In this document: one piece after another, positions 9,375-27,922 of the stretch | Layout of the letters: each line of letters opens with the position of its first letter | Numbering within the stretch: position 1 is the stretch's first letter | DNA from: Planctomycetota bacterium | GTDB lineage: Bacteria > Planctomycetota > UBA1135 | DNA: 31,770 bases | Reading direction: 5' to 3' | NCBI GenBank assembly: GCA_045047305.1 | Contig: JASFYO010000018.1 | Coordinates: 1-31,770, forward strand | Notes under the pieces: model-generated | What the model was told of the DNA's origin: nothing | The model's input: only the letters and a program-made list of their open reading frames with translations | Databases searched by the model: none | Position numbers and translations under genes: made by a program

Positions 9375-10505
9375 ATGCTCAATGTTGGCTTTGACATCCG
9401 CCCTGCGTTGTTCGACTACGCAGGCATCGGGCGCTACGTGCGTGAACTCGGTACCGCCCTCACCAAAATGGATGAGGGAGATGCTCCGTATTTGCAAATG
9501 TTCGCCCCCTCATGGCGCGGTGGGCGGCAGGTTCCGCCGGGACTAGAACCGCAGCGTCACAAAATGAACCTGGGATGGTTACCCGGCCGCGTGATGGACA
9601 AGCTCGCTTTGCTTCCAGGTATGGATGCCGGGCGCTTCCCCGCCAAGGTCGATGTCTTCCATTGGACCGATTACACCTACCCCACCGTGCGCAGTTCCGC
9701 CAAAGTGATGACTTTACATGATGCAGCCTTTGTTGCCGATCCAAAGTTCCACGGTTGGGATACTTCCATTTTGCTCGACCGCGTGCGCAAGGCCTTACGC
9801 GCCGCGGATCGAATTATCGTAGTTTCAGAGCCAGGTCGTTTCGACGCGGAATTACTCGGTGCGCCATCAGAGAAGGTTGTGGTGGTACCGCACGGAGTGA
9901 GCCCATATTTTCGCCCGCCAGAAAAGGAGCTTACGGATAGTGGATTCATTCTTACCGTAGGAACTTTGGAGCCGCGAAAGAATTACATCCGCAGTTTATG
10001 CGCCATGGAAAAAGCTTGGGATCGCGATCTTGCTCCGGATTGGGTGATTATCGGACAACCGGGTTGGGACTACGAAAAGTTCTTGAAGCGAATGGAGACC
10101 TCGCGTCATCGCAAGCGCATCCGTTGGGTGCAAAGCGTGACCGACACGGAATTGCTGCGCTATTACCAAGGTGCTCTGGCTTTGCTGTTCCCATCTCTGC
10201 ATGAAGGGTTTGGATTAGTCGTACTCGAAGCGATGGCTTGTGGCGCACCCGCTATCGTCGGGAACCAGACTGCGCCGGCCTGGGTTGCTGGGCACGCAGG
10301 TATGCGGGTAGATCCGAAATCGATTGATTCGATTGCTGAGGGCATCGAGCGCATGGTCTCCGAGAGCGCTTGGCGTAAGCAAGCTTCCGCGGTAGGCATC
10401 AAGCGCGCGAAGGGCTTTACTTGGGCAAAAGCTGCGGAGGAAACCGTCAAGGTCTATGAAGCTGCGGTTGCGGAGCACAAAGAGAATGCTGGAGTCATGG
10501 CATGA
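9375..10505 (+). CDS. Glycosyltransferase family 4 (GT-B fold)
   Basis: GIGRYV, TLHD, VGTLEPRKN and FPSLHEGFGLVVLEAMACG (EX7E) motifs. Confidence 0.95.
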   Translation: MLNVGFDIRPALFDYAGIGRYVRELGTALTKMDEGDAPYLQMFAPSWRGGRQVPPGLEPQRHKMNLGWLPGRVMDKLALLPGMDAGRFPAKVDVFHWTDYTYPTVRSSAKVMTLHDAAFVADPKFHGWDTSILLDRVRKALRAADRIIVVSEPGRFDAELLGAPSEKVVVVPHGVSPYFRPPEKELTDSGFILTVGTLEPRKNYIRSLCAMEKAWDRDLAPDWVIIGQPGWDYEKFLKRMETSRHRKRIRWVQSVTDTELLRYYQGALALLFPSLHEGFGLVVLEAMACGAPAIVGNQTAPAWVAGHAGMRVDPKSIDSIAEGIERMVSESAWRKQASAVGIKRAKGFTWAKAAEETVKVYEAAVAEHKENAGVMA

Positions 10506-13477: not shown

Positions 13478-14523
13478 ATCCACTACTCCTCGGTTTTTTG
13501 CGCGAAGTCCTGCCCTGGCGATGGCAACTCTTTTTGGTAGTCGCGGTCTTTACCTTCGCATCCCTTAGCTTCGATGCTTCTCTCGGCGCTCACTCTCTCG
13601 GCACCTATCTTGCCTATTTGAGCGTCCTCCCCACCGTTTTGCTGTTTCGAGTTGGTGCGGTACTTGATTTGCGTGCGCAACAAGGTTGGCCACAGCAAGA
13701 GATTTTGCGCGATCGCTCAGGCCGCAAGGCCCCGCTTGTAGAAATATTAGCTTGCGCTGTTTTGCTTTGCTCCGTCCTTCTACTCGGACTTGCCCCACTC
13801 GCTACCGGCCTTTTCCCAATGCCAGAAGCATCCTCCGGGCTCTATCCTGTGCGGGTTCAATTTGAGACCCAGGAGGATGGCGCTGAGCTTTGGTTGTTCG
13901 ATCTAGGATCTAGAGTGCCAGAAAATGCTCGCCTGCAACTCACTTTGGATTGGAGCGAAGCCAGCGTAGATCCAACCTTAGCCAAAGTTCAATCTCCAGA
14001 GCGACAAGTGCAACCTATACCAGGGAAACTTTTACGCTGGGATTTATCCGCCGCAGAAGCACGAGTCGGCAAGCTGGTTTTACATGCAACTACAGGTTCG
14101 GGACTTCATTTGCGCAAGCATCTTTGCCGTCTAGAAATTCCTCGCCCAAACTCCAGCGCCCTACCCCGCCTTGTTGCGCATCAGTTTCTCTTTTTTCTCC
14201 CACTCTTCGCAATCTTGATCGCATGGTTCCGTTTTGGACGCATCAGCGGAAGCCTCAGCGCCATGACCGCCTTCACCATAGGTACCATCGCCGCCATGCA
14301 GGTTGAGCCTGTGGATCTTGGCAGCGGCCCCATGGCAGCGCTCGCAAAGATGCTGCTACTGTTCAAACTCAGCCTACCTCCGGTCGAAGGATTACTTGCC
14401 ACTGGGCAACGCTTCGACCGTCTCGCGGACACCACTCCACTCGCCAGCATCATCGCCTGGCTACTCATCGGCGCACTTGCCTTAGGGCTTGCTTGCCGTC
14501 GTCGGCCACCTCGCCACGGATGA
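13474..14523 (+). CDS. Multi-pass membrane protein with central soluble insert, probable ABC permease partner
   Basis: ATGA-coupled to the ATPase. About three N-terminal and three to four C-terminal hydrophobic segments flank a beta-rich soluble region. Confidence 0.7.
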   Translation: MNPLLLGFLREVLPWRWQLFLVVAVFTFASLSFDASLGAHSLGTYLAYLSVLPTVLLFRVGAVLDLRAQQGWPQQEILRDRSGRKAPLVEILACAVLLCSVLLLGLAPLATGLFPMPEASSGLYPVRVQFETQEDGAELWLFDLGSRVPENARLQLTLDWSEASVDPTLAKVQSPERQVQPIPGKLLRWDLSAAEARVGKLVLHATTGSGLHLRKHLCRLEIPRPNSSALPRLVAHQFLFFLPLFAILIAWFRFGRISGSLSAMTAFTIGTIAAMQVEPVDLGSGPMAALAKMLLLFKLSLPPVEGLLATGQRFDRLADTTPLASIIAWLLIGALALGLACRRRPPRHG

Positions 14524-15131
14524 GATTCAGCTTCCCATCCAGCACGCAATTTCTCGCATGCAGCCTCCTTGCCATAACTCTCGGTGGAGTTTTGCTCGGC
14601 ACGGTTCGCCCCCTCGGCGCGCGATCCTGGGACAGTTTGCAGGCCTGGTGGACCATGCGCCGCTTCCATCAGGCCGAGGCGGATTTGGATTTACCCGCCC
14701 TACTTGACCTTGGAAAGGAGTACCTGCAACTTACCGGTGAAGGCGACGTACTCGAATTTGCGATCTACCGTGTGGGCTATGGCGCCTCGGGCCCGTCCAA
14801 CAACCGCCTCCCCTCCGAAGCGCTTTTCTGGGCGCGCGCGGGAATTGAAGCTCTGAATGAAACCTTGAACATCCTGCCTGACCCTTGGGCTAGCCTTCAA
14901 ACACAATGCTATACGCTTGTCGAGAGAGTGTTTCCATTGACCCAAGACCCCAAGGACCTCTCCGCCGGCCTACGGGCCATGGAGGATCGTTTAGCCGCCG
15001 GCGGGGGATATGCAACTAGCTCGCCCGGCCTGTCCAAGCTTTATCGCCGCTATCTCTCGCTTTCTCCCGCAGAACGACAGCCCTTTCTCCTGCGCCGCCT
15101 AGATCGCCTGCTAATCCCTGAGGACGAGTAG
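14520..15131 (+). CDS. Membrane-anchored helical hypothetical protein (PilG/XapA-like by context)
   Basis: ATG 14520 makes an ATGA overlap with the upstream stop. N-terminal TM FLACSLLAITLGGVLLG followed by amphipathic helices. Confidence 0.65.
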   Translation: MRFSFPSSTQFLACSLLAITLGGVLLGTVRPLGARSWDSLQAWWTMRRFHQAEADLDLPALLDLGKEYLQLTGEGDVLEFAIYRVGYGASGPSNNRLPSEALFWARAGIEALNETLNILPDPWASLQTQCYTLVERVFPLTQDPKDLSAGLRAMEDRLAAGGGYATSSPGLSKLYRRYLSLSPAERQPFLLRRLDRLLIPEDE

Positions 15132-15157
15132 GCCTCCAGCTCCTACAATCCCCCTCG

Positions 15158-15802
15158 ATGGAATCGGTCCTCGACCACATGGCACAGAATCCCGAGCTAT
15201 GGGCATTCTTATTGCTTGTGGCCTGCGGAATCGGTTTACCCCCGTGGTCGGAAGAGCTCGTCATCCTTGGCTCCGGATATTTTGTTGCAGCGGGCGAACT
15301 TAGTTACTTTCACGCCGTAATCTGGTGCTGGGCCGGCATCCTTGCTGGCGATACGGTGATTTATGGACTTGGCCGTTTTGCGGGCGACCGGGTTTACAAC
15401 TGGCCGATCCTACGCAGCCATTTACGGCCGGCACGGCGTCGACGTTTTAATGCCAGCTTCTTAAAGCATGGCACCAAGGTTGTGTTCTTTGCACGCTTCC
15501 TACCCGGAGTGCGCATGGTGGCCTATTTAGTTGCCGGCAACTTAGGCATGAAGTACTGGAAGTTCGTCATGCTCGACTCCATCGGCGCAGCTTTAACCGT
15601 ACCTATTTCAGTCTTCCTTGGTTGGAAATTTGCCTCCAACCTCGACTATGTGTTGGAGGCTATGCACCGATATCGGATTCCTCTGCTAGTTTTTGGCGTC
15701 CTGGTGGTGCTGTTTGTCGTTCTCCGCATTGGCCGTTCTCGCAAAGAACGTTTCTTACGAATTTTGAATATGCGCAAAAAGCGCGACGCAAAAGACTCTT
15801 AG
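15158..15802 (+). CDS. DedA family membrane protein
   Basis: GIGLPPWSEELVILGSG, GDTVIYGLGR and FFARFLPGVR motifs. Confidence 0.93.
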   Translation: MESVLDHMAQNPELWAFLLLVACGIGLPPWSEELVILGSGYFVAAGELSYFHAVIWCWAGILAGDTVIYGLGRFAGDRVYNWPILRSHLRPARRRRFNASFLKHGTKVVFFARFLPGVRMVAYLVAGNLGMKYWKFVMLDSIGAALTVPISVFLGWKFASNLDYVLEAMHRYRIPLLVFGVLVVLFVVLRIGRSRKERFLRILNMRKKRDAKDS

Positions 15803-15822
15803 GGCAGACAGCTTTTCGCGTC

Positions 15823-16530
15823 TTACAAACTCTGCCCGCCGTCGACACGAAGAATGTTGCCAGTGAGATGCGCAGCCCCTTCTGAAACTAAATAACGCAC
15901 CGTGTCGGCAATATCTTGTGGCGTTCCAAGTCGGCCGGTGACCGTTTCCTTTCGCGCTGCAGCTGCGTACTGTTGCGGGATTTGCGCGGTCATTGGAGTT
16001 TCAATCCAACCAGGCTCAACCACATTTACCGTAACGCCCTTAGAACCTAATTCCTTAGCCAGGCTCTTAGCAAGGCCATGCAGACCGGACTTGCTTGCAG
16101 AGTAAGTGGTTTGCCCAAACTTGCCCCGAGTTCCGTTGATACTACCAATCAGGACGATGCGACCCCATTCCGCAGCACGCATGTGCGATGCCACCGCGCG
16201 CGCCTGCAACCATGCACCACGTAAATTCACCCCCATCACTGCATCGAAATCAGAGGCTTCTTGCTTCCAGATCGGCTTGTCACGCGTGATGCCTGCGCAA
16301 TGCACGAAAATGGTTGGCTGAAACTCTGCATGCAACTGCGTGACTGCTTCTTCCTTAGAAGTGTCGCTTTCAACCGCACGCACCTTGGGTCCACAAGTTT
16401 TGCATAAGGCGTCTGCCTCTACGCTTTGCCCAATATGGGTAAATACAACTTCATGACCAGCATCGTGTAAGGCGCAAACGACTGCGGCGCCAATGCCACC
16501 TGAACCTCCAGTCACTAAGGCGAGACTCAT
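15823..16530 (-). CDS. Short-chain dehydrogenase/reductase (FabG/PhaB-like 3-hydroxyacyl-CoA or 3-oxoacyl oxidoreductase)
   Basis: TGGSGGIG, AGITRD, GQTTYSASK (YxxxK), PGWIETPMT and VDGG motifs. ATG 16530 overlaps the dch stop (ATGA). Confidence 0.92.
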   Translation of the reverse strand: MSLALVTGGSGGIGAAVVCALHDAGHEVVFTHIGQSVEADALCKTCGPKVRAVESDTSKEEAVTQLHAEFQPTIFVHCAGITRDKPIWKQEASDFDAVMGVNLRGAWLQARAVASHMRAAEWGRIVLIGSINGTRGKFGQTTYSASKSGLHGLAKSLAKELGSKGVTVNVVEPGWIETPMTAQIPQQYAAAARKETVTGRLGTPQDIADTVRYLVSEGAAHLTGNILRVDGGQSL

Positions 16531-17309
16531 CGGTTTTTCCAAGTGGGCTTACGCTTGCCCATGAATGCCTGGATTCCTTCGACAGCATCTTCGGTATGCA
16601 TGAGTTCTTCCAAGTACTGCTTCTCCAGCTGCGGCAAGACTTCTGTCAACGCCCGCGTCCACGGCCAGCGTGATGCCTTTCGACCTTGCCTTAAAGCTGC
16701 AGCCGAATGTCGCAAAATGTTTTTCTCCGCCCAAGCCTGCACTCCCTGCGCGAGGGCCTGATCTCCGAGTTCGACATCGACGATCCCAAGTTGCACCGCC
16801 TCTTCATACTTCACAATACTTCCTGAAAGCAACATGGCAGCAGATCGGCTCGCATTCACGCGTAAAGGTAGAAGCGCAGAGCCCGCAGGAGGGAATACTC
16901 CGAGATTGATCTCAGGGCAACCAAGCTGCGCGGTGGAAGTTGCAGCGATGAGGTCGCAGCCAAGCGCTACTTCAAAGCCGCCACCGAGGCATCGGCCTTG
17001 CACAGCTGCCATCAGTGGTGGCAGGTACAGGTGATTCATGTCGCGCAGAAGGGCATGGAACTGCGGAAGCATGGCGCCAACTTGATCCGGCGTATGCTCG
17101 GGAACACTTGCCCCATAACTAAAGTGGCCTCCAGCACCTTTCAGCACTACAAGTTTTAGGTCGCCGTCGGCAGCTGCGGAAACCAGAAGCTCTCGCAGCC
17201 CGTTCATCAAAGCGCAGTCAACAATATTTGCTGGAGCTGGGCCAAACTCCAACATCAACACCGCACCATCACATAAGTGCGAAGTTGCGATGCGCGTGGC
17301 AAGTTCTAT
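16527..17309 (-). CDS. dch: Cyclohexa-1,5-diene-1-carbonyl-CoA hydratase (crotonase family)
   Basis: ANIVD, HFSYGASVPEH, GRCLGGGFE, PEINLGVFPP and YLEELMHTEDAVEGIQAF match Dch/BamR-type hydratases, and the operon context agrees. Start proposed at ATA 17309. The first canonical start is GTG 17261. Confidence 0.85.
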   Translation of the reverse strand: MELATRIATSHLCDGAVLMLEFGPAPANIVDCALMNGLRELLVSAAADGDLKLVVLKGAGGHFSYGASVPEHTPDQVGAMLPQFHALLRDMNHLYLPPLMAAVQGRCLGGGFEVALGCDLIAATSTAQLGCPEINLGVFPPAGSALLPLRVNASRSAAMLLSGSIVKYEEAVQLGIVDVELGDQALAQGVQAWAEKNILRHSAAALRQGRKASRWPWTRALTEVLPQLEKQYLEELMHTEDAVEGIQAFMGKRKPTWKNR

Positions 17310-18433
17310 TTTTCTTCCTCCCGATCCACGGCATGCGGTGCAGCCCGGCGAGAGAGGTTATCTCCATAACGCACACCTTCTGCCAACGCGCGACGCATTT
17401 CAATGAAGTTGGTTTCACGTTCTTCCCGCGGCGCACGGTTAAAGGTGCGGAAACCCATACGTCCTTCCGTCATCATGTTGAGGCCAAGCCACGCGCGATT
17501 CGATTCGCGGTTCTGATCCCAATGTTGCAACTTGTGCTTACGCAATTGCTCCAAGGTATAGGTGGTGCAATCAGGCATAGTTTGTGCCAACTTGCCACAC
17601 ATAAGTTCCACCGCTTCATCCAGCATCGAAAAATCGACCTCCGACGCTTTCATTTTCGCTTTCCCTGTTTCGAAAGCTTCGCCAGTGAGTGGCTTGCCGT
17701 ATAGCGGACGCCCATAGAGATCGGTGGTGAACTCGGTGTGCACCATAGGATTCGCGATGAAGGTTCCATCGTATTTCAGCACTGGAGTAATTTCATTGAT
17801 GAGTCCAATGTTGAGTGCTGCATGGGCAGTCCAGGTTTCACAAAGTGTGCAAGATTCAATCGCGCGCGTGATGCCAACGAAGATTGGCAGCAAATCGGTC
17901 GAACCACCGACCGGGGCAGAGCCATGCTTCGGTCCTGCTTGACCGAACCGAGCGGTGTCTGCCGCAACGGTGAAATCACAAGCCATGCCGATTTCTTGAC
18001 CGCCACCGATGCGCATTCCGTTCACCCGGTTGATCACCGGCTTATCGCATTCCATGAGCGCAGAAACCCCGTCGTTGAACAAACGCATGTAGCGCCGATA
18101 CTCATCTGGGCGGCCAGAGTAATGATCGCTGTATTCGGCAGTATTGCCACCGGTGCAGAAAGCTTTGTCACCTACTGCGGTAAACACCACTGCAACCACA
18201 TCGCGTTCATTGCTTGCCTTACGGATAGCAAGAATCAACTCTGCCATTGCGCGGGTGGTGTATGAGTTGTACTGCTTTGGATTATCCAGCCAAATCCAAA
18301 CATTGAAAAGATCGTCTACTTGGGTGCCATCGGGCAGAATCAAGGGACGTTTTTCATAACGAATTTCAGTGAACTCGTAGCCAGGCGCAAGTTCGTGGTC
18401 GGCAAACAAAGTAGGGTCGGCGGTGATGCTCAT
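17306..18433 (-). CDS. oah: 6-oxocyclohex-1-ene-1-carbonyl-CoA hydrolase (ring-opening, BamA/Oah/BzdY)
   Basis: Signature segments LDNPKQYNSYTT, AFCTGGNT.EY, VNGMRIGGGQEIGMACDF, GQAGPKHGSAPVGGSTD and NRAWLGLNMMTE. 375 aa. Confidence 0.96.
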   Translation of the reverse strand: MSITADPTLFADHELAPGYEFTEIRYEKRPLILPDGTQVDDLFNVWIWLDNPKQYNSYTTRAMAELILAIRKASNERDVVAVVFTAVGDKAFCTGGNTAEYSDHYSGRPDEYRRYMRLFNDGVSALMECDKPVINRVNGMRIGGGQEIGMACDFTVAADTARFGQAGPKHGSAPVGGSTDLLPIFVGITRAIESCTLCETWTAHAALNIGLINEITPVLKYDGTFIANPMVHTEFTTDLYGRPLYGKPLTGEAFETGKAKMKASEVDFSMLDEAVELMCGKLAQTMPDCTTYTLEQLRKHKLQHWDQNRESNRAWLGLNMMTEGRMGFRTFNRAPREERETNFIEMRRALAEGVRYGDNLSRRAAPHAVDREEEK

Positions 18434-19485
18434 GGCACTAGTACAGGTCTTTGCGTAATTCGGTGATGGCGTGCATCTTCCAGCACGTCGTTGATTTCAT
18501 TCATCGGGAAGCGTTTCACAAACGGCTTCACCAAAACCTTGCCCTCGCGAATGAGATCGAGAGCAGGCGCATAGTACTGCGGCCGACAGCCCCAGTTGCC
18601 GAAAGCATCGGCATCGAAGGCCATCAGATTGGACAGGCGCACCGACACGCGGTCGAGAGTGAATCCAACAAAGCCAACCACGCCAGAGAAAGTCATTAAA
18701 GACCACGCAAGTTCTTGGCCAGAAGCGGTTCCACTCATCTCCAAGACTTTGAGTCCGACTTTAGAAAAGCCTAACTCCTTATTTTTTGCACGCACCGCGG
18801 CGCGTGATTCTTTGCCATCCATGCCAAGCGTGTTCACCACACCTTCCGCACCATACTCCAAGGCTCGGGCAAGCTTGTCATCGTCGATATCCACTGCAAC
18901 CACGCGTGCACCAAAAGCTTTTGCGATTTGAATACCGAAACTTCCAACACCGCCGGCGCCAATAATAACCACGTGATCCCCCTCCACTACCTGCGCACGT
19001 TTCATCGCTTGGTAAGGAGTGGTGACGGCATCGGCCAAAACCGAGACGTCGGCAAGAGCGATATCTTCAGGCAACCCCGAAGCATCAACCAACCACCGCG
19101 ATGGGACCAAAATGTGCGATGCAAAGCCTCCGTGGAAATCATTCCCTGGCATCAACTGCGCCCGGCATGAGGTCTCACGACCTGCATGGCACAAATCACA
19201 TTCCCCGCACGGCAAAACTGCTGGCACAACTACATCTTGATTCGCCCAAGCTTCACTGCCTGCGCCAACGGCAACCACGGTGCCCGAAATTTCATGCCCG
19301 AGCGCGAGTGGAAGTTCGTGCGCTGTGCGTACGCCGCCGTAAAGGAACCCGAGGTCAGTGTGGCACATGCCGCATCCTTTGACCTCGATGAGGACTTCGC
19401 CGGGACCTGGTTGCGGTAAGTCACCATCGGTTTTCACCAAGGGTTCATTCGGTGCCGTCATGAGCCAACGATAAAATTGCGACAT
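18430..19485 (-). CDS. had: 6-hydroxycyclohex-1-ene-1-carbonyl-CoA dehydrogenase (Zn-dependent MDR)
   Basis: GCGMCHTDLGFLYGGVRT.H.LPLALGHEISG, structural Zn site CGECDLC..C, and Had-specific RLSNLMAFDA..GNWGC. Confidence 0.95.
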   Translation of the reverse strand: MSQFYRWLMTAPNEPLVKTDGDLPQPGPGEVLIEVKGCGMCHTDLGFLYGGVRTAHELPLALGHEISGTVVAVGAGSEAWANQDVVVPAVLPCGECDLCHAGRETSCRAQLMPGNDFHGGFASHILVPSRWLVDASGLPEDIALADVSVLADAVTTPYQAMKRAQVVEGDHVVIIGAGGVGSFGIQIAKAFGARVVAVDIDDDKLARALEYGAEGVVNTLGMDGKESRAAVRAKNKELGFSKVGLKVLEMSGTASGQELAWSLMTFSGVVGFVGFTLDRVSVRLSNLMAFDADAFGNWGCRPQYYAPALDLIREGKVLVKPFVKRFPMNEINDVLEDARHHRITQRPVLVP

Positions 19486-19489
19486 GAAC

Positions 19490-20662
19490 TTATTTGTATG
19501 CGGCGCAACCGGTCACGGCCTGGCCAATGATGAGGGTATGGATTTCGTGGGTGCCTTCATAAGTCAGCACCGTTTCTAGATTGCAGGCATGACGCCCAGA
19601 GTGGTACTCCAGAGTGATGCCATTTGCGCCGAGTAAGCTTCGTGCATCGCGCGCAATGTCGAGAGCGATTTTCACATTGTTGCGCTTAGCCATAGACACT
19701 TGTTGCGGTGTCATCGTGCCCTCTTCCTTCATCCGGCCTAAACGCAAAACCAGAAGTTGCGCTTTGGTGATCTCGGTAGCCATCTCGGCGATTTTCTGCT
19801 GCGTGAGCTGGAAAGAGGCCAATGGACGGTCGTAAATTTGGCGCTGCTGGGTGTAGTCCACCGCTTCAAAAAGACATGCTTGCGCCGCCCCTAAGGCTCC
19901 CCAGGCAATGCCGTAGCGCGCTTGAGTTAAGCACATCAATGGGCTTTTCAGATTGGAAGTATTTGGCAGACGCTGCGCCTCAGAAACGCGGACATCGTCC
20001 ATCACCAATTCCGAGGTGACGGAACAACGTAATGACCACTTATGCTTTTGCTCGGGAGCGGAAAAACCTTCACTATCGTTATGCACAATGAAACCTTGCA
20101 CAATGTTGTCTTCATCCCGTGCCCACACGACGGAGATGTCGCTCACCGTTCCGTTGGTGATCCACATTTTACGGCCGTTGATAATCCAGTCATCGCCATC
20201 CCGCTTGCAGCGACTACGCATACCGCCTGGGTCCGAACCGAAGTCAGGTTCGGTCAAACCAAAGCAGCCGATGTATTCCCCTGAGGCAAGCTTCGGCAGG
20301 TACTCCTTCTTTTGTTCCTCAGAGCCGAACTCGAAGATGGGGTACATCACTAAAGATCCTTGCACCGAAGTGAAGGAACGGATTCCAGAATCCACACGCT
20401 CGATTTCTTGGCAAATCAAACCGTACATGACGCTGCTCAACCCTCCTCCACCATACTCCTCAGGAATACTTGGGCCGAGTAAGCCAAGCTCACCGAGCTC
20501 GGGAATGATTTCATTCGGAAATGTGCCGTCTTCCCAGTTCTTAGCGATGAGGGGCATCAAGCGGTCTTCGCAGTAGGCGCGGACCTGGTCACGAATCATG
20601 ATTTCGTCTTCACTTAGAAGCGAACTGATGTCGTAAAAATCTAACTCTTTGTAGCTTTTCAT
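19490..20662 (-). CDS. gcdH: Glutaryl-CoA dehydrogenase
   Basis: ERVDSGIRSFTSVQGSLVMYPI, GCFGLTEPDFGSDPGGM, ARYGIAWG and NLETVLTYEGTHEIH (catalytic Glu). Glutaryl-CoA is an intermediate of the lower benzoyl-CoA pathway. Confidence 0.9.
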   Translation of the reverse strand: MKSYKELDFYDISSLLSEDEIMIRDQVRAYCEDRLMPLIAKNWEDGTFPNEIIPELGELGLLGPSIPEEYGGGGLSSVMYGLICQEIERVDSGIRSFTSVQGSLVMYPIFEFGSEEQKKEYLPKLASGEYIGCFGLTEPDFGSDPGGMRSRCKRDGDDWIINGRKMWITNGTVSDISVVWARDEDNIVQGFIVHNDSEGFSAPEQKHKWSLRCSVTSELVMDDVRVSEAQRLPNTSNLKSPLMCLTQARYGIAWGALGAAQACLFEAVDYTQQRQIYDRPLASFQLTQQKIAEMATEITKAQLLVLRLGRMKEEGTMTPQQVSMAKRNNVKIALDIARDARSLLGANGITLEYHSGRHACNLETVLTYEGTHEIHTLIIGQAVTGCAAYK

Positions 20663-20664
20663 TT

Positions 20665-21522
20665 CTAGCCGACACTAGATGTGTCTGCAGTGGCAACTTT
20701 CGCTGCCGATGGATTACGAAGGCGGTAATGCGCGAGCCAAGCTGCACCGAGGGCAGTTGCAAACTGAGGCATGGCTTCGTCACGATCGGAGTCGGGAATG
20801 TTGCCCGGCAACCGGATGTCATTTTCCAAACGCTTATCAATGGATGTAGACATCGTACGGTAGCGCATGATGCCACCAATGAGGGTGATTTCTGGCTCCC
20901 CTTTCACTCGCTTCATTAGCTGAATGGCGCGCGTGGTGAGAGACTCAATCGAGCCTTGCATGATATCTGCAGGAGGCGTCCCGAGGCTCAGTTGATTGAT
21001 GACTTCGGACTCTGCAAACACGGCGCAAACCCCGGAAATGGTCACTGGATTGCGCGAGGTCTCCAACAGCTGACCAATGTCCTTGGTTTCGTAACCCATA
21101 TAACGGGCAGTCTTCTCGAGGAAGGCTCCAGTGCCTGCCGCACACTTGTCGTTTTGACGGAAGGAAATCACCCGTCCACTATCGTCAATGCGAATTGCCT
21201 TCATGGTTTGCCCCCCAACGTCGAGAATGGTCCGGGTCTCTGGGAAAAGCAGGAAGCAACCGCGAGAACTTGCGGTGATATCGGTCACCGCAAGGTCTTT
21301 ACACTTCACTTGATGACGCCCAAATCCAGTGGCGATGACATAGTTCAAGTCTTCACGAGTCAAATTTGCCTTCTCCAGGCATGCATCTAGGCATTTTTCC
21401 GCAACTGCGCCTAACTTAAACCCAGTGTTCATCACATGCCGAGCGAGGATGTTGTAATCCTCATCGAGAAGAATGGTTTTCGTGTAGGTCGAGCCTACAT
21501 CTATGCCGGCGGTAAGTTTCAT
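20665..21522 (-). CDS. bcrD: Benzoyl-CoA reductase ATP-binding activase subunit (delta/BcrD/BzdP position)
   Basis: ASKHA motifs [10 protein letters not shown] and DVGGQ, cluster cysteines [10 protein letters not shown] and [15 protein letters not shown] 21522 gives an ATGA overlap and 285 aa. Confidence 0.8.
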
Positions 21523-22340
21523 GATGCTGACCCCTCGACTTGGCTGCGCGGGGCGCGACTCGCCTGAATGTGATCCATGGCAAAAAGTGCCGCTCCGAGA
21601 GCACCTGCGAAATGGCATTCATCTGAGATATTGAGCTTGCACTTCAAAGCTTTTTCCAAGGACTTCACCATTGCGGTATTACGTGAAACTCCACCGGTGA
21701 AGGTGACTTCCTCATTGATGCCAACGCGACGCAATAGGCCCATTGAGCGTTTCGCAATGGATTCGTGAACACCCCAAAGAATGTCCTCTACTTTTTTCCC
21801 TTTGCCCAACCAGGACAAAATTTCCGACTCGGCAAAGACGGTGCATGTGGTGGAAATCTGAACAGGATTATCCGAAAGCAATGCGGTCGGGCCAAGTTCG
21901 TCCAAAGGTATGTCTAGAGCCGCGGATGAGGCGCCAAGAAAACGGCCGGTTCCAGCTGCACACTTATCATTCATGCAGAAATCATCGATCTCGCCGTTAG
22001 GGGCAACTCGGATAGCTTTGGTGTCTTGGCCGCCCATATCTAACACGGTGCGGGTACCAGGGAAAATGTGAGAAGCTCCGCGGCCGTGGCAACTAATCTC
22101 TGTCACCTGTGCGTTTCCAAAAGTCACTTTATAGCGACCATAACCAGTGCCGATGACCCACTCCACTTCCTCTTCCAAAAGCTTCTTTGCGTTTATGCAT
22201 TCTTGAAATGCATTTTCAGCCGCCTGGGTTACGTTTGCTCCCGTATCAATCAAACATGAGGCGATAATTTCGCGCTCTTCATTGATGATGACGGCTTTGG
22301 TTTGGGTTGACCCGACGTCGACTCCTGCTGCGTATGCCAT
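21519..22340 (-). CDS. bcrA: Benzoyl-CoA reductase ATP-binding activase subunit (alpha/BcrA/BzdQ position), short HgdC-like form
   Basis: [50 protein letters not shown] and [11 protein letters not shown] motifs. 273 aa. GGAGA SD upstream. Confidence 0.8.
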
Positions 22341-22363
22341 GTTCTTTCTCCGCTTGGTTTGGA

Positions 22364-23659
22364 TTACTTAGTGATTTTGTTTTGCTGACGTCGCGCCACC
22401 ATGCCTTCAAAGAATGCATCGACACGATTTTTCATTTGCGCTTCGGAAACTACGCGCTGGTCCATCATGTCGGACTCGAGGAATAGACTTGGGATGCCTG
22501 TGCGTTCTGCTAACGCGCGTCGACCGTCTGCTAATCCAGTCGATACGGTGCGACAACTCTTGATGGGGTGGTAGATGATGCCGTCGATACCAAAACCATC
22601 GATCATGGACTCCACTACGGTGTCATGATGGAACATCGAATCCATGGCGTCGCGCACCGAGATGAGATTCCCTTCAGCAAGGCTCGCGATCGGATCACTG
22701 AGGTCGTATTGATATCCAAGATTGGATCCTCCACTTGCAAACCACAGGTACGTGGAGTGCACGAAGGTTCCCTTCCACTCCGAAAACATCTCGTTGAAGC
22801 GGCGAAAAATCGGGTAGCAAGGCACGCCAACAAAACATAAGCGCCACTCCTCCTCCGTGATGGTGCCTATGTCGTGCGCAACTTTGTACTCCATTTCCTC
22901 CACCAAATCCTCAAAGTACTTCGCAGCACGCTCGTCTCCACGTAAGCCATTCGCTACGCCTAAAAAGATGGTGCCGTCGGTCAATGCGTTAAACACCGAC
23001 GGATGATTCTTGTTCAGGTCCAATAGCTTCTGCCACGAACTGGACAAGCCATTCACGTGTCCCATGACTTCACGCAATTTATCGATGTCGAATTTTTTCC
23101 CGGTCACCTTTTCGCAAACCGTAATCAACTCACAAATCTGTGCCTCTACATATTCCACATCGTTCTTGAAATCACGGCTTCCAATCGCCGACGCGCCGCC
23201 AGCTGAGCGGTTTCCTGGAATATCGATTGTCACTACCGGCATTTCATACATGCGCTCCCACGCTTCCGCCCACTTCAAATAGGTATTGCAGGCGTTCGTC
23301 AAAACGGAAATGGTCGGCTTTGGGATTCTCCCCATTGGGTGCTCACCACCCCTCAGTTGAGTGCCAATATCAGCCTTCACATACCCGCAGATGTCTGGCG
23401 AATAGCCATGATCTTCTGCTTCCTCCAAGTATTCCTGCGCCACCCGACGTACGGCTGTTTGCAGGGAATTGATTTCAGGGAACACCACAGGCAGATCAAA
23501 GGACTTCAAAATCTCATTGAAGCTTCCCATGACAAAGACATAGGCTGCTCCTTTGCCCTCCTCTGCTGTCTGATTTAATTCCTTGAACCAGTCGCGGAAA
23601 AGCTCCGCACCTTCGCGGTTTCCGCGTCCGACAATATTTTCAGTTGTGGTTGTACTCAT
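22364..23659 (-). CDS. bcrB: Benzoyl-CoA reductase subunit B (HgdA/HgdB-family [4Fe-4S] subunit)
   Basis: [48 protein letters not shown] and [16 protein letters not shown] parallel BcrB/BadE segments. Three cluster cysteines present. Confidence 0.88.
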
Positions 23660-23668
23660 GATTCATCC

Positions 23669-24835
23669 TTAAACGAACAGCAGGTTTTCCATGAAAGTCT
23701 CGAGCTGTAACTCAAGACCAGAGAAGGAGGTTTGGTTTTCTTCGAACTCACTCACGAAGAAAGGGATATTCGCTTTCTCCAGCCCGTGGATGTAAGCCAC
23801 TTGCTCTTCCAAGCCGGGCTCACACATTTTCGCCGACGTTACGATTGCAGCTTCACCACCGGCCTTACGAATGCGAGCAATCAACATGTCTTCCTTGCGC
23901 TTACGCAAGTCATGCTGAACAGGACTGTAAGACGAATCCTCGATGTACGCGCGCGCCATTGCAGTCAACGGCGACTCGCCTTGCGGGATATCAGACAAAA
24001 TCCAGCGCAAACCTATGAGGAAGTCATCGTCCACCACGTAAGCAGAGCGTCCGAGCATGCGCACCATGTCGAAGGGTGGTTGCTCACAGAAGGCACCTTC
24101 GTAAACCACACGGATGCGATCCTCGCGCTTAGCATCCACCGCCCGGATGAGCGGCAAGGCGTATTCCATCATCTCGTTGTGATCTTCACGTGGCATGCGA
24201 CCGGCCATCGCCATTAAGGCATAGGCATCTTCCGCAGCGATTTTTTCTGGGCACTCGCGCTTGATGTCATATAAATCACGCAGCAACTCACGATTGCGAT
24301 TAAAGATACCTATCGAGTGACGCAGTGCATCGTCTGTCACTTCTTTCCCAGAGACCTTCTCGACCAAACGCTTAAGACGATCATACTCGCCAGCTAAGTA
24401 CTCAATCGATGATGCAGAGTTTGGATTCTGCGGGAGGTATAAAATTTCACATGGATAATCGAAGTTACGCCCAAAGATTGCACCGAGGTTGCGTGCGGCA
24501 TCACAGATTGGATGAGTGATGAAGGCATCCAGGACCACCTGCTTGGAGAGTGCAATCTCCAAAGTCGTTTTGATGGTGGAGCATAGATAACTTCCGAAAC
24601 GCGAGTCCGCCTGATCTGGCTGCACATTGGCACCGTGTAGATTTAGAGGCAGCATGCCAGCTGCATGCGCGATCTCGGCAGGGAAGAAAACCTGAAAGTG
24701 GCCAAGGACTTTGCCTCCGTTAGCGCGCCACTCCTTCACCGTGGGAAAATGAATGTCTTCGTAAGTTTCGCGGCACTGATATAGCACCTCTTCAAGGGAC
24801 TGGCCGCGAATTTTATCCATGAAGGATTTGCTCAT
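23669..24835 (-). CDS. bcrC: Benzoyl-CoA reductase subunit C (HgdB-family [4Fe-4S] subunit)
   Basis: EIAHAAGMLP, SYLCS, PICDAARNL, LPQN, GAFCEQPP, YVVDDDF and KMCEPGL parallel BcrC/BadD segments. ATGA overlap with the tetR stop. Confidence 0.88.
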   Translation of the reverse strand: MSKSFMDKIRGQSLEEVLYQCRETYEDIHFPTVKEWRANGGKVLGHFQVFFPAEIAHAAGMLPLNLHGANVQPDQADSRFGSYLCSTIKTTLEIALSKQVVLDAFITHPICDAARNLGAIFGRNFDYPCEILYLPQNPNSASSIEYLAGEYDRLKRLVEKVSGKEVTDDALRHSIGIFNRNRELLRDLYDIKRECPEKIAAEDAYALMAMAGRMPREDHNEMMEYALPLIRAVDAKREDRIRVVYEGAFCEQPPFDMVRMLGRSAYVVDDDFLIGLRWILSDIPQGESPLTAMARAYIEDSSYSPVQHDLRKRKEDMLIARIRKAGGEAAIVTSAKMCEPGLEEQVAYIHGLEKANIPFFVSEFEENQTSFSGLELQLETFMENLLFV

Positions 24836-25449
24836 GATGCTTTTCTCTTATTGATGGCTTCGCTTGACGCGGACATCGCGCCGCAAAAGAACAGATTCAA
24901 CAGGTGGGCAAGCTTGGCCTCGATGTTTGGGAAAATACTTTCCGCATGTGGGTTCAAACTCACCTCGACCAAAGCGACGTAAGACCAAGCTAATAATTTG
25001 GCATCGTTCTTTGGAATTTCGCCGGTGTCCATTCCGCTTTGCAAAATAGTTTCGACAGGGCCCGGCAGCGCTTTTTGATAGGCGCGCACGATCCCTTCTC
25101 GCTGTTCGCCGCCAAACCGATTGACATCTCGACGCACCAAGCTGATGGCCTCCCGCTTCCACTGCGGCAAGCGAAAATAATCCAAGGTCAAACGATGCAA
25201 ACGTTGGACGCATGTTCCCTGCAGCGATACTGCCTCGGCAAAAATTTGAGCCTTCTCCTCTAAGTCGCGGTGCAGCATCGCCAGGTAAAGCTCCTCCTTG
25301 GAGGCAAAGTGGTGATAGACCCCTCCCTTGGTGGTCTCAGCCGCCGCAGCGACGCAATCTATGGTCACATCGGCAAAAGTTGCAACCAAAAACAGCCGTT
25401 GGGCAGCATTCAGGATGCGGGTTCGGGTTGCAGATGAGCGTTGTTGCAT
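24832..25449 (-). CDS. TetR/AcrR family transcriptional regulator heading the bcr operon
   Basis: TRTRILNAAQRLF..VTIDCVAAAAETTKGGVYHHFASKEELY helix-turn-helix. ATG 25449 preferred over TTG 25464, which lies inside the putative operator. Confidence 0.93.
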   Translation of the reverse strand: MQQRSSATRTRILNAAQRLFLVATFADVTIDCVAAAAETTKGGVYHHFASKEELYLAMLHRDLEEKAQIFAEAVSLQGTCVQRLHRLTLDYFRLPQWKREAISLVRRDVNRFGGEQREGIVRAYQKALPGPVETILQSGMDTGEIPKNDAKLLAWSYVALVEVSLNPHAESIFPNIEAKLAHLLNLFFCGAMSASSEAINKRKAS

Positions 25450-25458
25450 GGGGAAGGG

Positions 25459-25512
25459 AAACAAACTAGTCAGTCGGTTTCTTCATCCTCCTCGAGAATC
25501 GGGCCCGGTCAA
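25459..25512 (-). promoter_or_regulatory. Putative promoter and TetR operator of the bcr operon
   Basis: TTGACC (-35-like, 25512-25507), 16-nt spacer, GAGGAT (weak -10, 25490-25485). Directly downstream is the imperfect palindrome ACAAACTAGTCAGT (25461-25474) within a 4-bp-periodic TAGT-CAGT-CGGT run. Confidence 0.5.
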
Positions 25513-25879
25513 GGGAATTAAAGACCATATTATCCCTTTTAGCCACTAAATCGAGATAGTTTCATTCACTTTCAAAAACTGTATATATCCGTAACTACCT
25601 ACAATAGAATGAGTTATGCGCAATTACCTAAAAGATTGTAACACGACTCTGCCGCACCAGACCACGGCCGAGCGTTGGGGCCCACAGAATCCCAATTCCA
25701 TTTGGTAAGCCAAATTTCAACGGAAGCTTCCGCCGGCCAAAAAATGCCATAAATGCGGTTCTTAGGCCTTTTCTTTACCCCCAACTAGTCCCGATTCGCT
25801 AAAATCTGCGCTTCGCTTTTGCCCCCAAACCCTCAATTTGAAGGTAGGGAGAAGCTGTCCCCCTCCAATCGAAACATCG

Positions 25880-27922
25880 ATGGACAACATGATCACAATT
25901 CTTCCTTGGATCGGAACCGCGGCCGCGCTTGTCATGGCTGCTCTGGTCTACGCCAAAGTCATGGCAGCCCCTGCTGGCAACGACACCATGCAAAGCCTTG
26001 CGTCTGCCATCCAAGATGGTGCGCGTGCTTTCCTAATCACTGAGTACAAGCTCCTCGCAATATTCGTGGTCGTGGTCGGTGGAGGCCTCTACGTGTTGCC
26101 AGAAGGCGGCGGTCTGCACACCATGATTGCCTTTTTCACTGGTGCTTTTGCTTCGGCACTTGCTGGCTGGATTGGCATGTACACCGCCACTCGCGCGGCA
26201 GTACGCACCACGGAAGCCGCCCGTACCAGCCTCGCCGGTGCGCTCAAGATTGCGTTTGGCTCGGGCACGGTCATGGGTATGACTGTGGTTGGTCTCGGCG
26301 TGCTTGGAATCGCAGTGTTCTTTCTAGGATTCCACTACGACCTCCAACAAATCCTTGGCTTTAGTTTTGGCGCCTCGGCGATTGCATTATTCGCGCGCGT
26401 CGGCGGTGGCATTTTCACCAAAGCTGCTGACGTTGGCGCCGACTTGGTGGGCAAAGTCGAAGCTGGTATCCCCGAAGACGATATCCGCAACCCCGCCACC
26501 ATTGCTGACAACGTAGGCGATAACGTGGGCGACGTCGCCGGCATGGGCGCTGACTTGTTTGAGTCTTATGTCGGGTCCATCATCGCTACCATGATTCTTG
26601 GTGCGGCCTTCGCCACTGGCGATATCCCTCTTACGGATCAACCACTAGTGGTACTGCCACTGTCCATTGCGGCGGTCGGCGTGTTTGCTTCCATCGTGGG
26701 AACCTTCTTCGTTTCCACCAACGATGAAAGCAAAATCCACGGCGCTTTGTTCAAGGGCCTCATCGTTGCTTCCATCATCTTGTTGGGTTTTGCTTACTAC
26801 CTAACCAACATGGCTGGTTCTGATTTTGGCGACATGAGCAACATGAACTTGTTCTACTGCATTGGAGCTGGACTTGCTTCGGGTGTGATTATCGGGAAAA
26901 TCACCGAGTACTACACTGCTATGGAGTGCAAGCCGGTTAAAACAATCGCCGAGCAAGCCAAAACTGGGGAAGCTACCACGATCATTTCTGGACTAGCTGT
27001 CGGCATGAAGTCCACTTGTCTTCCAGTCATTGTCATCTGTGCAACCATCGCGGTCTCCTATGCCCTATGCGGCACTTACGGCATCGCTCTAGCAGCGGTT
27101 GGCATGCTTTCTACTTTGGGGATTTCACTCGGCGTCGATGCTTACGGCCCGGTTGCTGACAACGCTGGCGGCATGGCTGAAATGGCTGGCTTGCCTCCTG
27201 AAGTTCGCGAGCGCACCGACTCACTTGACGCTGTGGGTAACACGACTGCGGCGATTGGTAAAGGTTTCGCGATTGGTTCTGCTGCGCTTACTGCGCTGGC
27301 ATTCTTTGCGGCTTACTCTGCTGGCGCCGGCGATGTCGACCTCGGCATCGATAACCCCACCGTGGTAATCGGCATGTTCATCGGCGCGATGTTGCCGTTC
27401 TTGTTTGCCGCAATGACCATGGAAGCTGTGGGTAAAGCAGCCTTCGCAATGATTGACGAAGTCCGCCGTCAGTTCCGCGAGATCCCTGGCATCATGGAAT
27501 ACAAAGGTGAGAAGGACGCTCCAAACCGCCCCGATTACGATGCTTGTGTTGCTATCTCTACCAAGAGTTCCATGCAGCAAATGATCATGCCTGGCGTGCT
27601 TGCCATTGCAGCCCCTATTCTTGTCGGCATGTTCGGCGGCGTAGTCATGCTCGGCGGCCTACTTGCAGGTTCGCTTGCTGCTGGAGTCATGATGGCCATC
27701 TTCATGTCCAACGCAGGTGGTGCATGGGATAACGCTAAGAAACTCATCGAAACTGGTGCGCACGGCGGCAAAGGCTCCGATGCACACAAAGCTGCAGTGG
27801 TTGGCGATACCGTCGGTGACCCGTTCAAAGATACCTCTGGCCCAGCCTTGAACATCTTGTTGAAGCTGATGTCTGTGGTGTCGGTACTGCTGTTGCCATT
27901 CTTCATTGAGTTCAACAAGTAA
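25880..27922 (+). CDS. hppA: Membrane-integral ion-translocating pyrophosphatase, K+-dependent, probably Na+-pumping
   Basis: [54 protein letters not shown] and [10 protein letters not shown] motifs. GNTTAA marks K+ dependence and ADLFESY carries the gate Glu. Start ATG 25880 or 25889. TAAAAT at 25800-25805. Confidence 0.97.

What the first reader, a model, noticed from the sequence alone, without database searches (positions are those of the whole stretch)
15823..25512. Compact TetR-led anaerobic benzoyl-CoA dearomatisation operon in a probable Planctomycetota-like genome
Seen: ten co-oriented genes, tetR-bcrC-bcrB-bcrA-bcrD-gcdH-had-oah-dch-SDR, joined by 4-nt overlaps or gaps of 2-23 nt. 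Established: class I BCR, Dch, Had and Oah convert benzoyl-CoA to 3-hydroxypimeloyl-CoA and are best characterised in Thauera, Azoarcus/Aromatoleum, Rhodopseudomonas and Magnetospirillum, under other regulator families (BzdR, BadM/AadR). Inference: the flanking genes look PVC-like and no mobility genes flank the operon, so this may be a native anaerobic aromatic catabolism route in a lineage where it is not experimentally described.
Basis: partly seen in the sequence, partly recalled or inferred. Interest (0 to 1): 0.82.

Follow-up and report, generated by a model that had tools for sequence, protein, structure and literature searches.

The report
Planctomycete swapped-in benzoyl-CoA reductase operon
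An uncultured Planctomycetota bacterium carries an intact ten-gene operon predicted to break aromatic rings without oxygen, using a close relative of an already solved reductase (MBR type) that likely replaced its family's older one, so it extends a known pathway to a new host family rather than being a new system.

Summary
The ten co-oriented genes are real, intact and not chimeric: an independent contig spans both borders. The host is Planctomycetota by RpoB. The reductase is not Thauera BcrABCD: all four subunits miss those cut-offs and best match the solved 3-methylbenzoyl-CoA reductase MbdN/O/Q/P. TetR control of an MBR cluster is published (MbdR), and BCR genes were already listed for Planctomycetes MAGs. 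This scan found MBR-type operons before on other DNA (three notes).

'Native' is only half right. Oah, Had and GcdH form family-wide clades, but the tetR-NOQP module likely replaced an older reductase. This genome's operon groups with a more distant congener's copy (AU p=0.003) and sits at a new site.

New details: an 18-bp palindrome matching MbdR's operator precedes tetR in 26 of 32 upstream regions; narG occurs in 10 of 12 reductase-bearing family relatives and 0 of 6 without; all 19 family genomes tested carry aerobic boxB, yet none has a benzoate-CoA ligase above cut-off, so substrate entry is unexplained.

Verdict: new member of a known kind, interest 0.3.

The parts
25485..25512 (-). 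Putative sigma70-type promoter: -35 TTGACC (25512-25507), 16-nt spacer, weak -10 GAGGAT (25490-25485)
   Evidence: Read from the sequence. Many relatives have TTGAC plus a -10-like hexamer at the same place before the operator. Not called by the consensus scan, so inferred.
25463..25480 (-). Degenerate copy of the conserved TetR operator palindrome (consensus ATACCGAC-N2-GTCGGTAT)
   Evidence: 26 of 32 upstream regions match at <=3 mismatches versus a shuffle mean of 0.025. The window copy is not among them (6 mismatches, 10.8 bits), but no other letter is listed at 25456-25490 in three related contigs.
24832..25449 (-). TetR-family regulator, 205 aa
   Evidence: PF00440. A homologue at >40% identity is present in 33 of 80 related loci, upstream of N where its place was mapped. 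MbdR (4uds) matches only the HTH.
23669..24835 (-). MbdN-type (gamma, BcrC-like) catalytic subunit, 388 aa
   Evidence: PDB 9g87_B 487.6 bits versus BzdN 80; TIGR02263 226 of 421.
22364..23659 (-). MbdO-type (beta, BcrB-like) catalytic subunit, 431 aa
   Evidence: PDB 9g87_A 550 bits versus BzdO 85; TIGR02260 203 of 487.
21519..22340 (-). MbdQ-type (alpha) ATP-binding activator subunit, 273 aa
   Evidence: PDB 9gai_D 421 bits; only the C-terminal half of the 432-position BcrA model is matched, 210 of 578.
20665..21522 (-). MbdP-type (delta) ATP-binding activator subunit, 285 aa
   Evidence: PDB 9gai_C 284.8 bits; TIGR02261 129 of 313.
19490..20662 (-). Glutaryl-CoA dehydrogenase, likely decarboxylating type, 390 aa
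   Evidence: Nine of the top ten PDB matches are named glutaryl-CoA dehydrogenase, 419-494 bits; non-decarboxylating Acd model 231 of 470; TYEGTH motif.
18430..19485 (-). [quoted passage not shown]
   Evidence: TIGR03201 439, cut-off 339.
17306..18433 (-). Oah, ring-opening 6-oxocyclohex-1-ene-1-carbonyl-CoA hydrolase, 375 aa
   Evidence: TIGR03200 498, cut-off 464.
16527..17309 (-). Dch-like dienoyl-CoA hydratase, 260 aa with a likely ATA start
   Evidence: TIGR03189 is the best model, 208 of 292.5, next family 125; start site.
15823..16530 (-). Short-chain dehydrogenase, 235 aa; likely the 3-hydroxyacyl-CoA dehydrogenase step after ring opening (inferred)
   Evidence: adh_short_C2; kept in the cluster in most family and order relatives examined. 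Function not tested.

Best explanation
This is an intact ten-gene operon encoding an MBR-type class I aryl-CoA reductase with Dch, Had, Oah, an SDR and glutaryl-CoA dehydrogenase, predicted to dearomatise and open benzoyl-CoA without oxygen, likely under TetR control, in a Planctomycetota bacterium. Inferred mechanism: MbdQ/P hydrolyse ATP to push ferredoxin electrons into MbdO/N, giving cyclohexa-1,5-diene-1-carboxyl-CoA. Dch, Had and Oah then give 3-hydroxypimeloyl-CoA. The SDR and a thiolase encoded elsewhere would give glutaryl-CoA, and GcdH crotonyl-CoA plus CO2. The KorAB-type oxidoreductase and small ferredoxin elsewhere in the genome likely supply the electrons. The operon is likely the anoxic counterpart of the genome's aerobic Box route, used during nitrate or nitrite respiration. 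Inferred history: the lower pathway is old in the family, the tetR-NOQP module replaced an older reductase that lay between dch and SDR, and this lineage re-acquired the fused operon from a congener.
For: Subunit-by-subunit best matches to solved MbdN/O/Q/P. Likely cluster-ligand cysteines are invariant in all aligned related loci: O C91 78/78, C124 79/79, C369 76/76; N C85, C111, C338 76/76 each; Q C127, C166 74/74; P C127 73/73, C166 71/71. Oah and Had pass curated cut-offs. Other benzoyl-CoA genes in the genome: BoxR-like, BoxC, BoxB and BoxD over cut-off, and a three-subunit 4-hydroxybenzoyl-CoA-reductase-like enzyme below cut-off. KorAB-type pair over cut-off, ferredoxin, NirK over cut-off beside a NorCB-like pair. 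narG in 10 of 12 family relatives with a reductase and 0 of 6 without. History: Oah 100*, Had 99* and GcdH 97* family clades. The order had-oah-dch-[other reductase]-SDR is seen in five family genomes (two cut before SDR by a contig end); three order-level genomes show had-oah-dch-reductase-SDR, and seven genomes show gcdH-had-oah-dch-SDR without a reductase. GcdH+Oah join G000 with G007 (97/97), and AU rejects G000+G004 (p=0.003), although five flanking genes are 83.5% identical to G004 and 70.3% to G007.
Against: No activity or expression data. No benzoate-CoA ligase above cut-off in 19 family genomes; in G000 no family III CoA-transferase and no PaaK-like hit, so the substrate source is not identified. 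G000 itself has no narG, nirS or nosZ hit (87.7% complete). Dch and the Hcr-like subunits are below cut-off. The window's operator scores within genome background (16th of 34 sites over 9 bits). The narG pattern is among kin and is not a statistical test. The trees used LG+G4 without the mixture model, most were quick searches, and the G001/G007 order is unresolved in the RpoB tree.
Confidence: 0.75

Rival explanations
1. Same chemistry, but the physiological substrate is a ring-substituted aryl-CoA (3-methyl-, halo-, amino- or hydroxybenzoyl-CoA) rather than benzoyl-CoA, as in the mbd pathway.
For: The closest solved enzyme is 3-methylbenzoyl-CoA reductase. The operator consensus fits MbdR's ATAC-N10-GTAT. 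Dch is divergent. A tryptophanase/tyrosine phenol-lyase family enzyme is in the genome.
Against: It is the only BCR found in the genome. Box and Hcr-like enzymes point to plain benzoyl-CoA as the hub. Oah and Had pass the standard models. No mbdA-type ligase or transporter lies in the operon. Mbd enzymes also process benzoyl-CoA (PMC4424350 Discussion).
Confidence: 0.17
2. In this genome the operon is intact but little used or unregulated, because the lineage lacks nitrate reductase and its operator has decayed.
For: No narG found in G000; the operator has 6 mismatches; close congeners G001 and G004 keep only gcdH-oah and G006 has no reductase hit and a split dch.
Against: All ten frames are open, ligand cysteines are kept, and related contigs at about 93-98% identity keep the operon in place with the operator stretch unchanged while neighbouring bases differ. 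NirK and a NorCB-like pair are present.
Confidence: 0.06
3. The four genes encode a 2-hydroxyacyl-CoA dehydratase and activator for amino-acid fermentation, not a ring reductase.
For: Same Pfam families (PF06050, PF01869).
Against: HadB/HadC models score 156 of 750 and 148 of 700. Mbd structures score 3-4 times higher than the dehydratase for the catalytic subunits. There are two different activator subunits, and Oah, Had and Dch are adjacent.
Confidence: 0.02

Closest known systems
MBR, 3-methylbenzoyl-CoA reductase MbdONQP (PDB 9G87, 9GAI, 9GAL, 9GBA)
   Same: Four subunits of near-equal length with two short ATPase subunits; best structural-sequence match for each.
   Different: Host phylum; gene order N-O-Q-P; substrate range untested.
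mbd cluster of Azoarcus (Aromatoleum) sp. CIB with TetR repressor MbdR (PMC4424350; passages and Discussion part 1 read)
   Same: MBR-type reductase, upper pathway enzymes, a TetR regulator, and an 18-bp operator of form ATAC-N10-GTAT near the transcription start.
   Different: Here tetR heads the operon and is not an MbdR orthologue beyond the HTH. No ligase, transporter or ferredoxin gene is in the operon, and gcdH is inserted between the reductase and had.
Thauera-type BcrCBAD-dch-had-oah clusters
   Same: Same predicted pathway to 3-hydroxypimeloyl-CoA; an order-level relative carries a BcrB over cut-off (G022, 698 of 487).
   Different: All four window subunits are far below the Bcr cut-offs and the alpha subunit lacks the N-terminal half.
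Dual bzd/box benzoyl-CoA metabolism of Azoarcus sp. CIB (PMC4424350 introduction passage)
   Same: One genome with an anaerobic reductase route and the aerobic Box route with a BzdR/BoxR-type regulator.
   Different: No benzoate-CoA ligase above cut-off in the family. No boxA was seen beside boxCB (not searched genome-wide).

Membership tests
MBR-type class I BCR (MbdONQP) | Each of four subunits closest to MbdN, O, Q, P | tested here: met
   487.6, 550, 421 and 284.8 bits, top hit each.
MBR-type class I BCR (MbdONQP) | Two short, different ATPase subunits | tested here: met
   273 and 285 aa versus 269 and 273 in 9GAI; 39% identical to each other.
MBR-type class I BCR (MbdONQP) | Fe-S ligand cysteines kept | tested here: met
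   Cysteines match Mbd and are invariant across related loci. Their ligand role is from own knowledge of the family.
MBR-type class I BCR (MbdONQP) | Permanent heterotetramer (PMC11971306 introduction) and ATP-dependent aryl-CoA reduction | not testable with these tools
   Needs anaerobic protein work.
BCR-type class I BCR (Thauera BcrABCD) | TIGR02259/02260/02263/02261 cut-offs; long BcrA | tested here: not met
   210/578, 203/487, 226/421, 129/313.
BZD-type class I BCR | TIGR03190/03191/03192 cut-offs | tested here: not met
   80/454, 97/449, 189/380.
Upper benzoyl-CoA pathway | Oah and Had equivalogs | tested here: met
   498/464 and 439/339.
Upper benzoyl-CoA pathway | Dch equivalog | tested here: inconclusive
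   Best model but 208 of 292.5; its position in the cluster is conserved.
Upper benzoyl-CoA pathway | Benzoate-CoA ligase in the genome | tested here: not met
   0 of 19 family genomes over the TIGR02262 cut-off; 8 of 12 order-level genomes outside the family pass. Genomes are 83-92% complete.
MbdR regulator | Operator ATAC-N10-GTAT at the promoter | tested here: inconclusive
   Met in relatives (15 of 32 upstream regions have exactly ATAC-N10-GTAT); degenerate in the window (AAAC-N10-GTTT with a poor right half).
MbdR regulator | Full-length orthology to MbdR | tested here: not met
   A profile of 16 TetRs matches 4uds only over positions 4-65, 45 bits, below more than 40 other entries.
2-hydroxyacyl-CoA dehydratase (HadBC/HadI) | HadB and HadC cut-offs | tested here: not met
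   156/750 and 148/700.

The most novel reading that the evidence does not exclude
This Planctomycetota family is built around benzoyl-CoA (Box in all 19 genomes tested, a close Hcr-like enzyme in 15, a class I reductase in 13) yet makes it without any known benzoate-CoA ligase. It uses an undescribed entry, such as its ADP-forming acyl-CoA synthetase or a route from aromatic amino acids, and it swaps TetR-MBR modules between lineages together with nitrate respiration.
Probability: 0.3. Interest if true: 0.55.

Novelty: new member of a known kind. Interest (0 to 1): 0.3.

Why it matters
It moves the finding from 'BcrABCD in an unexpected phylum' to the MBR subclass, which standard Bcr and Bzd models miss, so surveys using those cut-offs would undercount it. 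The MBR-type beta subunit occurs in 17 of 41 genomes of this family and 24 of 278 of its class. The family looks like a facultative degrader of aromatics with both oxic (Box) and anoxic routes. It offers a testable operator for an uncharacterised TetR, a natural case of one reductase subclass replacing another inside a conserved pathway, and an open question about how benzoyl-CoA is made without a recognised ligase. None of this is new chemistry yet.

Tried and rejected
Chimera: rejected. Phenylalanine ammonia-lyase route: the single aromatic-lyase gene of relatives has the SH motif in 8 of 8 loci read, which I take from own knowledge as histidine ammonia-lyase; G000's copy is split over contig ends. 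Phenylglyoxylate or indolepyruvate oxidoreductase route: only one PF01855 protein, KorA-type, and the only PF00384 enzyme is a formate dehydrogenase. HppD: no hit over cut-off. Family III CoA-transferase and PaaK: none found. A wider TetR regulon: one exact site per genome in 16 of 25 genomes, two in one, none in eight; G001 and G004 each have one although no reductase was found in them, so single sites can be chance; no convincing second site in G000. Foreign composition: GC3 0.50-0.60 versus a genome mean of 0.57, sd 0.045, so no signal. No informative border repeats (longest 8 nt). No 16S primer match in the assembly, so the class was not determined. TGA stops in relatives' Hcr-like matches were an artefact of my over-long query. 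No RNA holder listed; runs X2, X5 and X6 covered the stretch only in part or not at all. Tiedt et al. 2018 (PMC6028946) was not held; I saw only its title in reference lists. Searches with no paper returned. No structure or complex prediction was run, since solved homologues exist.
Full report
Observation. Ten minus-strand genes run from tetR (ATG 25449) to an SDR ending at 15823, with gaps of 2-23 nt or 4-nt overlaps. The oah/dch junction fits this pattern only with an ATA start at 17309, which follows GGAGG and is in register with relatives' ATG; G007 has ATC there. The window is a whole contig of a 2.83-Mb, 87.7% complete genome. A contig of run X3 spans 14500-26551 at about 93% identity, and contigs of run X1 (labelled hydrothermal vent metagenome, 97-99% identical) bridge both borders, so the borders are not chimeric.

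Host. All but two of the RpoB hits that carry an organism name are labelled Planctomycetota or Planctomycetes, the closest at 95% identity; the two exceptions are distant ('Phycisphaerales', itself Planctomycetota, and 'bacterium'). The class was not determined.

The reductase. All four subunits fall far below the NCBIfam cut-offs for BcrA/B/C/D and BzdN/O/Q. Each has its best solved match in 3-methylbenzoyl-CoA reductase: MbdN 488, MbdO 550, MbdQ 421 and MbdP 285 bits. PMC11971306 (abstract and two passages seen) names BCR, MBR and BZD as the class I types. Likely cluster-ligand cysteines are invariant across 71-79 aligned loci. Oah and Had pass their cut-offs; Dch is the best model but below it. 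GcdH matches glutaryl-CoA dehydrogenases and has the TYEG motif, which I read from own knowledge as the decarboxylating type. The SDR's role is inferred from its conserved place in the cluster.

Regulation. A TetR homologue occurs in 33 of 80 related loci, upstream of N where mapped. Of 32 upstream regions read (31 loci plus the window; two loci at contig edges were left out), 26 carry ATACCGAC-N2-GTCGGTAT at three mismatches or fewer, against 0.025 in shuffles. This fits the MbdR operator ATAC-N10-GTAT (PMC4424350; passages and Discussion part 1 read). The TetR is not an MbdR orthologue beyond its HTH. The window's own copy (25463-25480) has six mismatches and scores within genome background, yet three related contigs show no change at 25456-25490 while neighbouring bases differ. 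It may be a functional variant; this is untested.

Distribution and history. The MBR-type beta subunit is found in 17 of 41 family genomes and 24 of 278 class genomes. The 80 best related loci come from about ten phyla; in a tree of 74 of them (six partial rows dropped) the Planctomycetota-labelled rows need six changes. Oah is in 15 of 18 family relatives, and Oah, Had and GcdH each form a family clade. Five family genomes have a different reductase (beta subunit 36% identical, nearer BcrB at 410 of 487 bits, short alpha) directly after dch, followed by SDR in the three where the contig continues; three order-level genomes show had-oah-dch-reductase-SDR. Seven genomes show gcdH-had-oah-dch-SDR with no reductase in between, and six of these have an MBR-type O elsewhere. 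I infer that the MBR module replaced the older reductase. The full ten-gene fusion was seen in one other genome, G007, where it lies between idh and cdf; 1 of the 80 titled loci also has it and should not be counted as independent. G004 and G001, closer to G000 in five flanking genes (83.5% and 75.5% versus 70.3%), keep only gcdH-oah next to idh, and G004 has dedA next to hppA. GcdH+Oah group G000 with G007 (97/97), and the AU test rejects G000+G004 (p=0.003). The simplest reading is loss, then re-acquisition from a congener at a new site; differential loss of paralogues is not excluded.

Physiology. The genome has BoxR-like, BoxC, BoxB and BoxD genes over cut-off, and boxB is in 18 of 18 family relatives. 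A three-subunit enzyme closest to 4-hydroxybenzoyl-CoA reductase but below cut-off has orthologues at 72% or more in 14 of 18 relatives. A KorAB-type pair and a small ferredoxin are present, as are aa3-like and cbb3 oxidases, NirK and a NorCB-like pair. No narG, nirS or nosZ was found in G000. Among family relatives narG is in 10 of 12 with a reductase and 0 of 6 without; kin are not independent. The gap is substrate entry: no benzoate-CoA ligase passes the cut-off in 19 family genomes, whereas 8 of 12 order-level genomes outside the family have one. Candidates are an ADP-forming acyl-CoA synthetase (in 12 of 13 reductase-bearing and 2 of 6 other family genomes, but missing from 5 of 19 box-bearing ones), a FadD-like ligase below all listed cut-offs and a family I CoA-transferase. 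None is tested.

Prior work. PMC7673041 (passages) lists Planctomycetes among MAGs with class I or II BCR genes; its supplement was not read. Passages of PMC11704145, PMC12869995 and bioRxiv 10.1101/2025.07.18.665577 report BCR genes in other uncultured phyla. Ten paper searches were allowed and nine used; none returned a study of this pathway in this family, but most subscription papers are not searched. Three earlier notes of this scan describe MBR-type operons in other genomes, one in Phycisphaerae; my MBR reading predates that look-up.

Verdict. A real, intact MBR-type benzoyl-CoA pathway operon in an uncultured Planctomycetota family: a new member of a known kind, interest 0.3. The most novel open reading is a ligase-independent entry to benzoyl-CoA across the family (probability 0.3, interest 0.55).

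Noticed in passing
L024:8108-9952, L091:3832-5676, L092:8122-9966: TetR and the MbdN-type subunit lie in one open 614-aa frame, an apparent regulator-enzyme fusion, in loci titled Pseudomonadota. An internal start is not excluded.
   Followed up: partly
window 17309 and L254 (G007): dch appears to start at ATA in the window and ATC in G007, where most relatives have ATG; possibly a way to lower Dch translation.
   Followed up: partly
L103-L105, L120, L121 (G016, G010, G018, G012, G014) and L116 (G025): A further class I reductase type: BcrB/BcrC-like but below cut-off, with a short alpha subunit; five of the six form their own 99* clade. Possibly an undescribed subclass.
   Followed up: partly
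L108 (G004) and L112 (G001): Only gcdH-oah is kept from the pathway, with intact frames; Oah without Dch, Had or a reductase hit is unexplained.
   Followed up: no
L111 (G006) 9590-10372: dch is in two frames, a likely pseudogene; this genome's GcdH, Had and Oah group with the other subclade of the genus.
   Followed up: no
L152 (G000 C3:110336-116881): Box cluster (boxR-like, boxC, boxB, boxD) with no boxA seen next to it; the electron donor for BoxB is unclear. In G013 and G017 box lies within about 15 kb of tetR-NOQP.
   Followed up: partly
window 3 to about 200 (minus strand): N-terminal piece of a histidine ammonia-lyase family gene cut by the contig end; the C-terminal piece is at the end of contig C22, which also carries hutU.
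   Followed up: yes
L148 (G000 C1:28724-36274): Cluster of a 26-heme and a 17-heme cytochrome, an unknown 548-aa protein and an Fe-S flavoprotein; a possible extracellular electron transfer conduit.
   Followed up: no
L123 (G000 C7:34255-36930): Formate dehydrogenase with an in-frame TGA at the cofactor-binding position, and a tRNA-Sec in the genome: a likely selenoprotein.
   Followed up: partly
L026, L029, L050, L070, L086, L089: MBR genes sit beside a second dehydratase/reductase-family set and an AMP-binding ligase, in some also a thiolase and a hydratase-dehydrogenase fusion; could be a side-chain shortening route to benzoyl-CoA.
   Followed up: no
L047, L049, L051, L054, L059: Actinomycetota loci place NOQP beside two proteins that look like family III CoA-transferases and a UbiD-like protein (names from sequence appearance, not scanned), suggesting a phthalate-type entry.
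   Followed up: no
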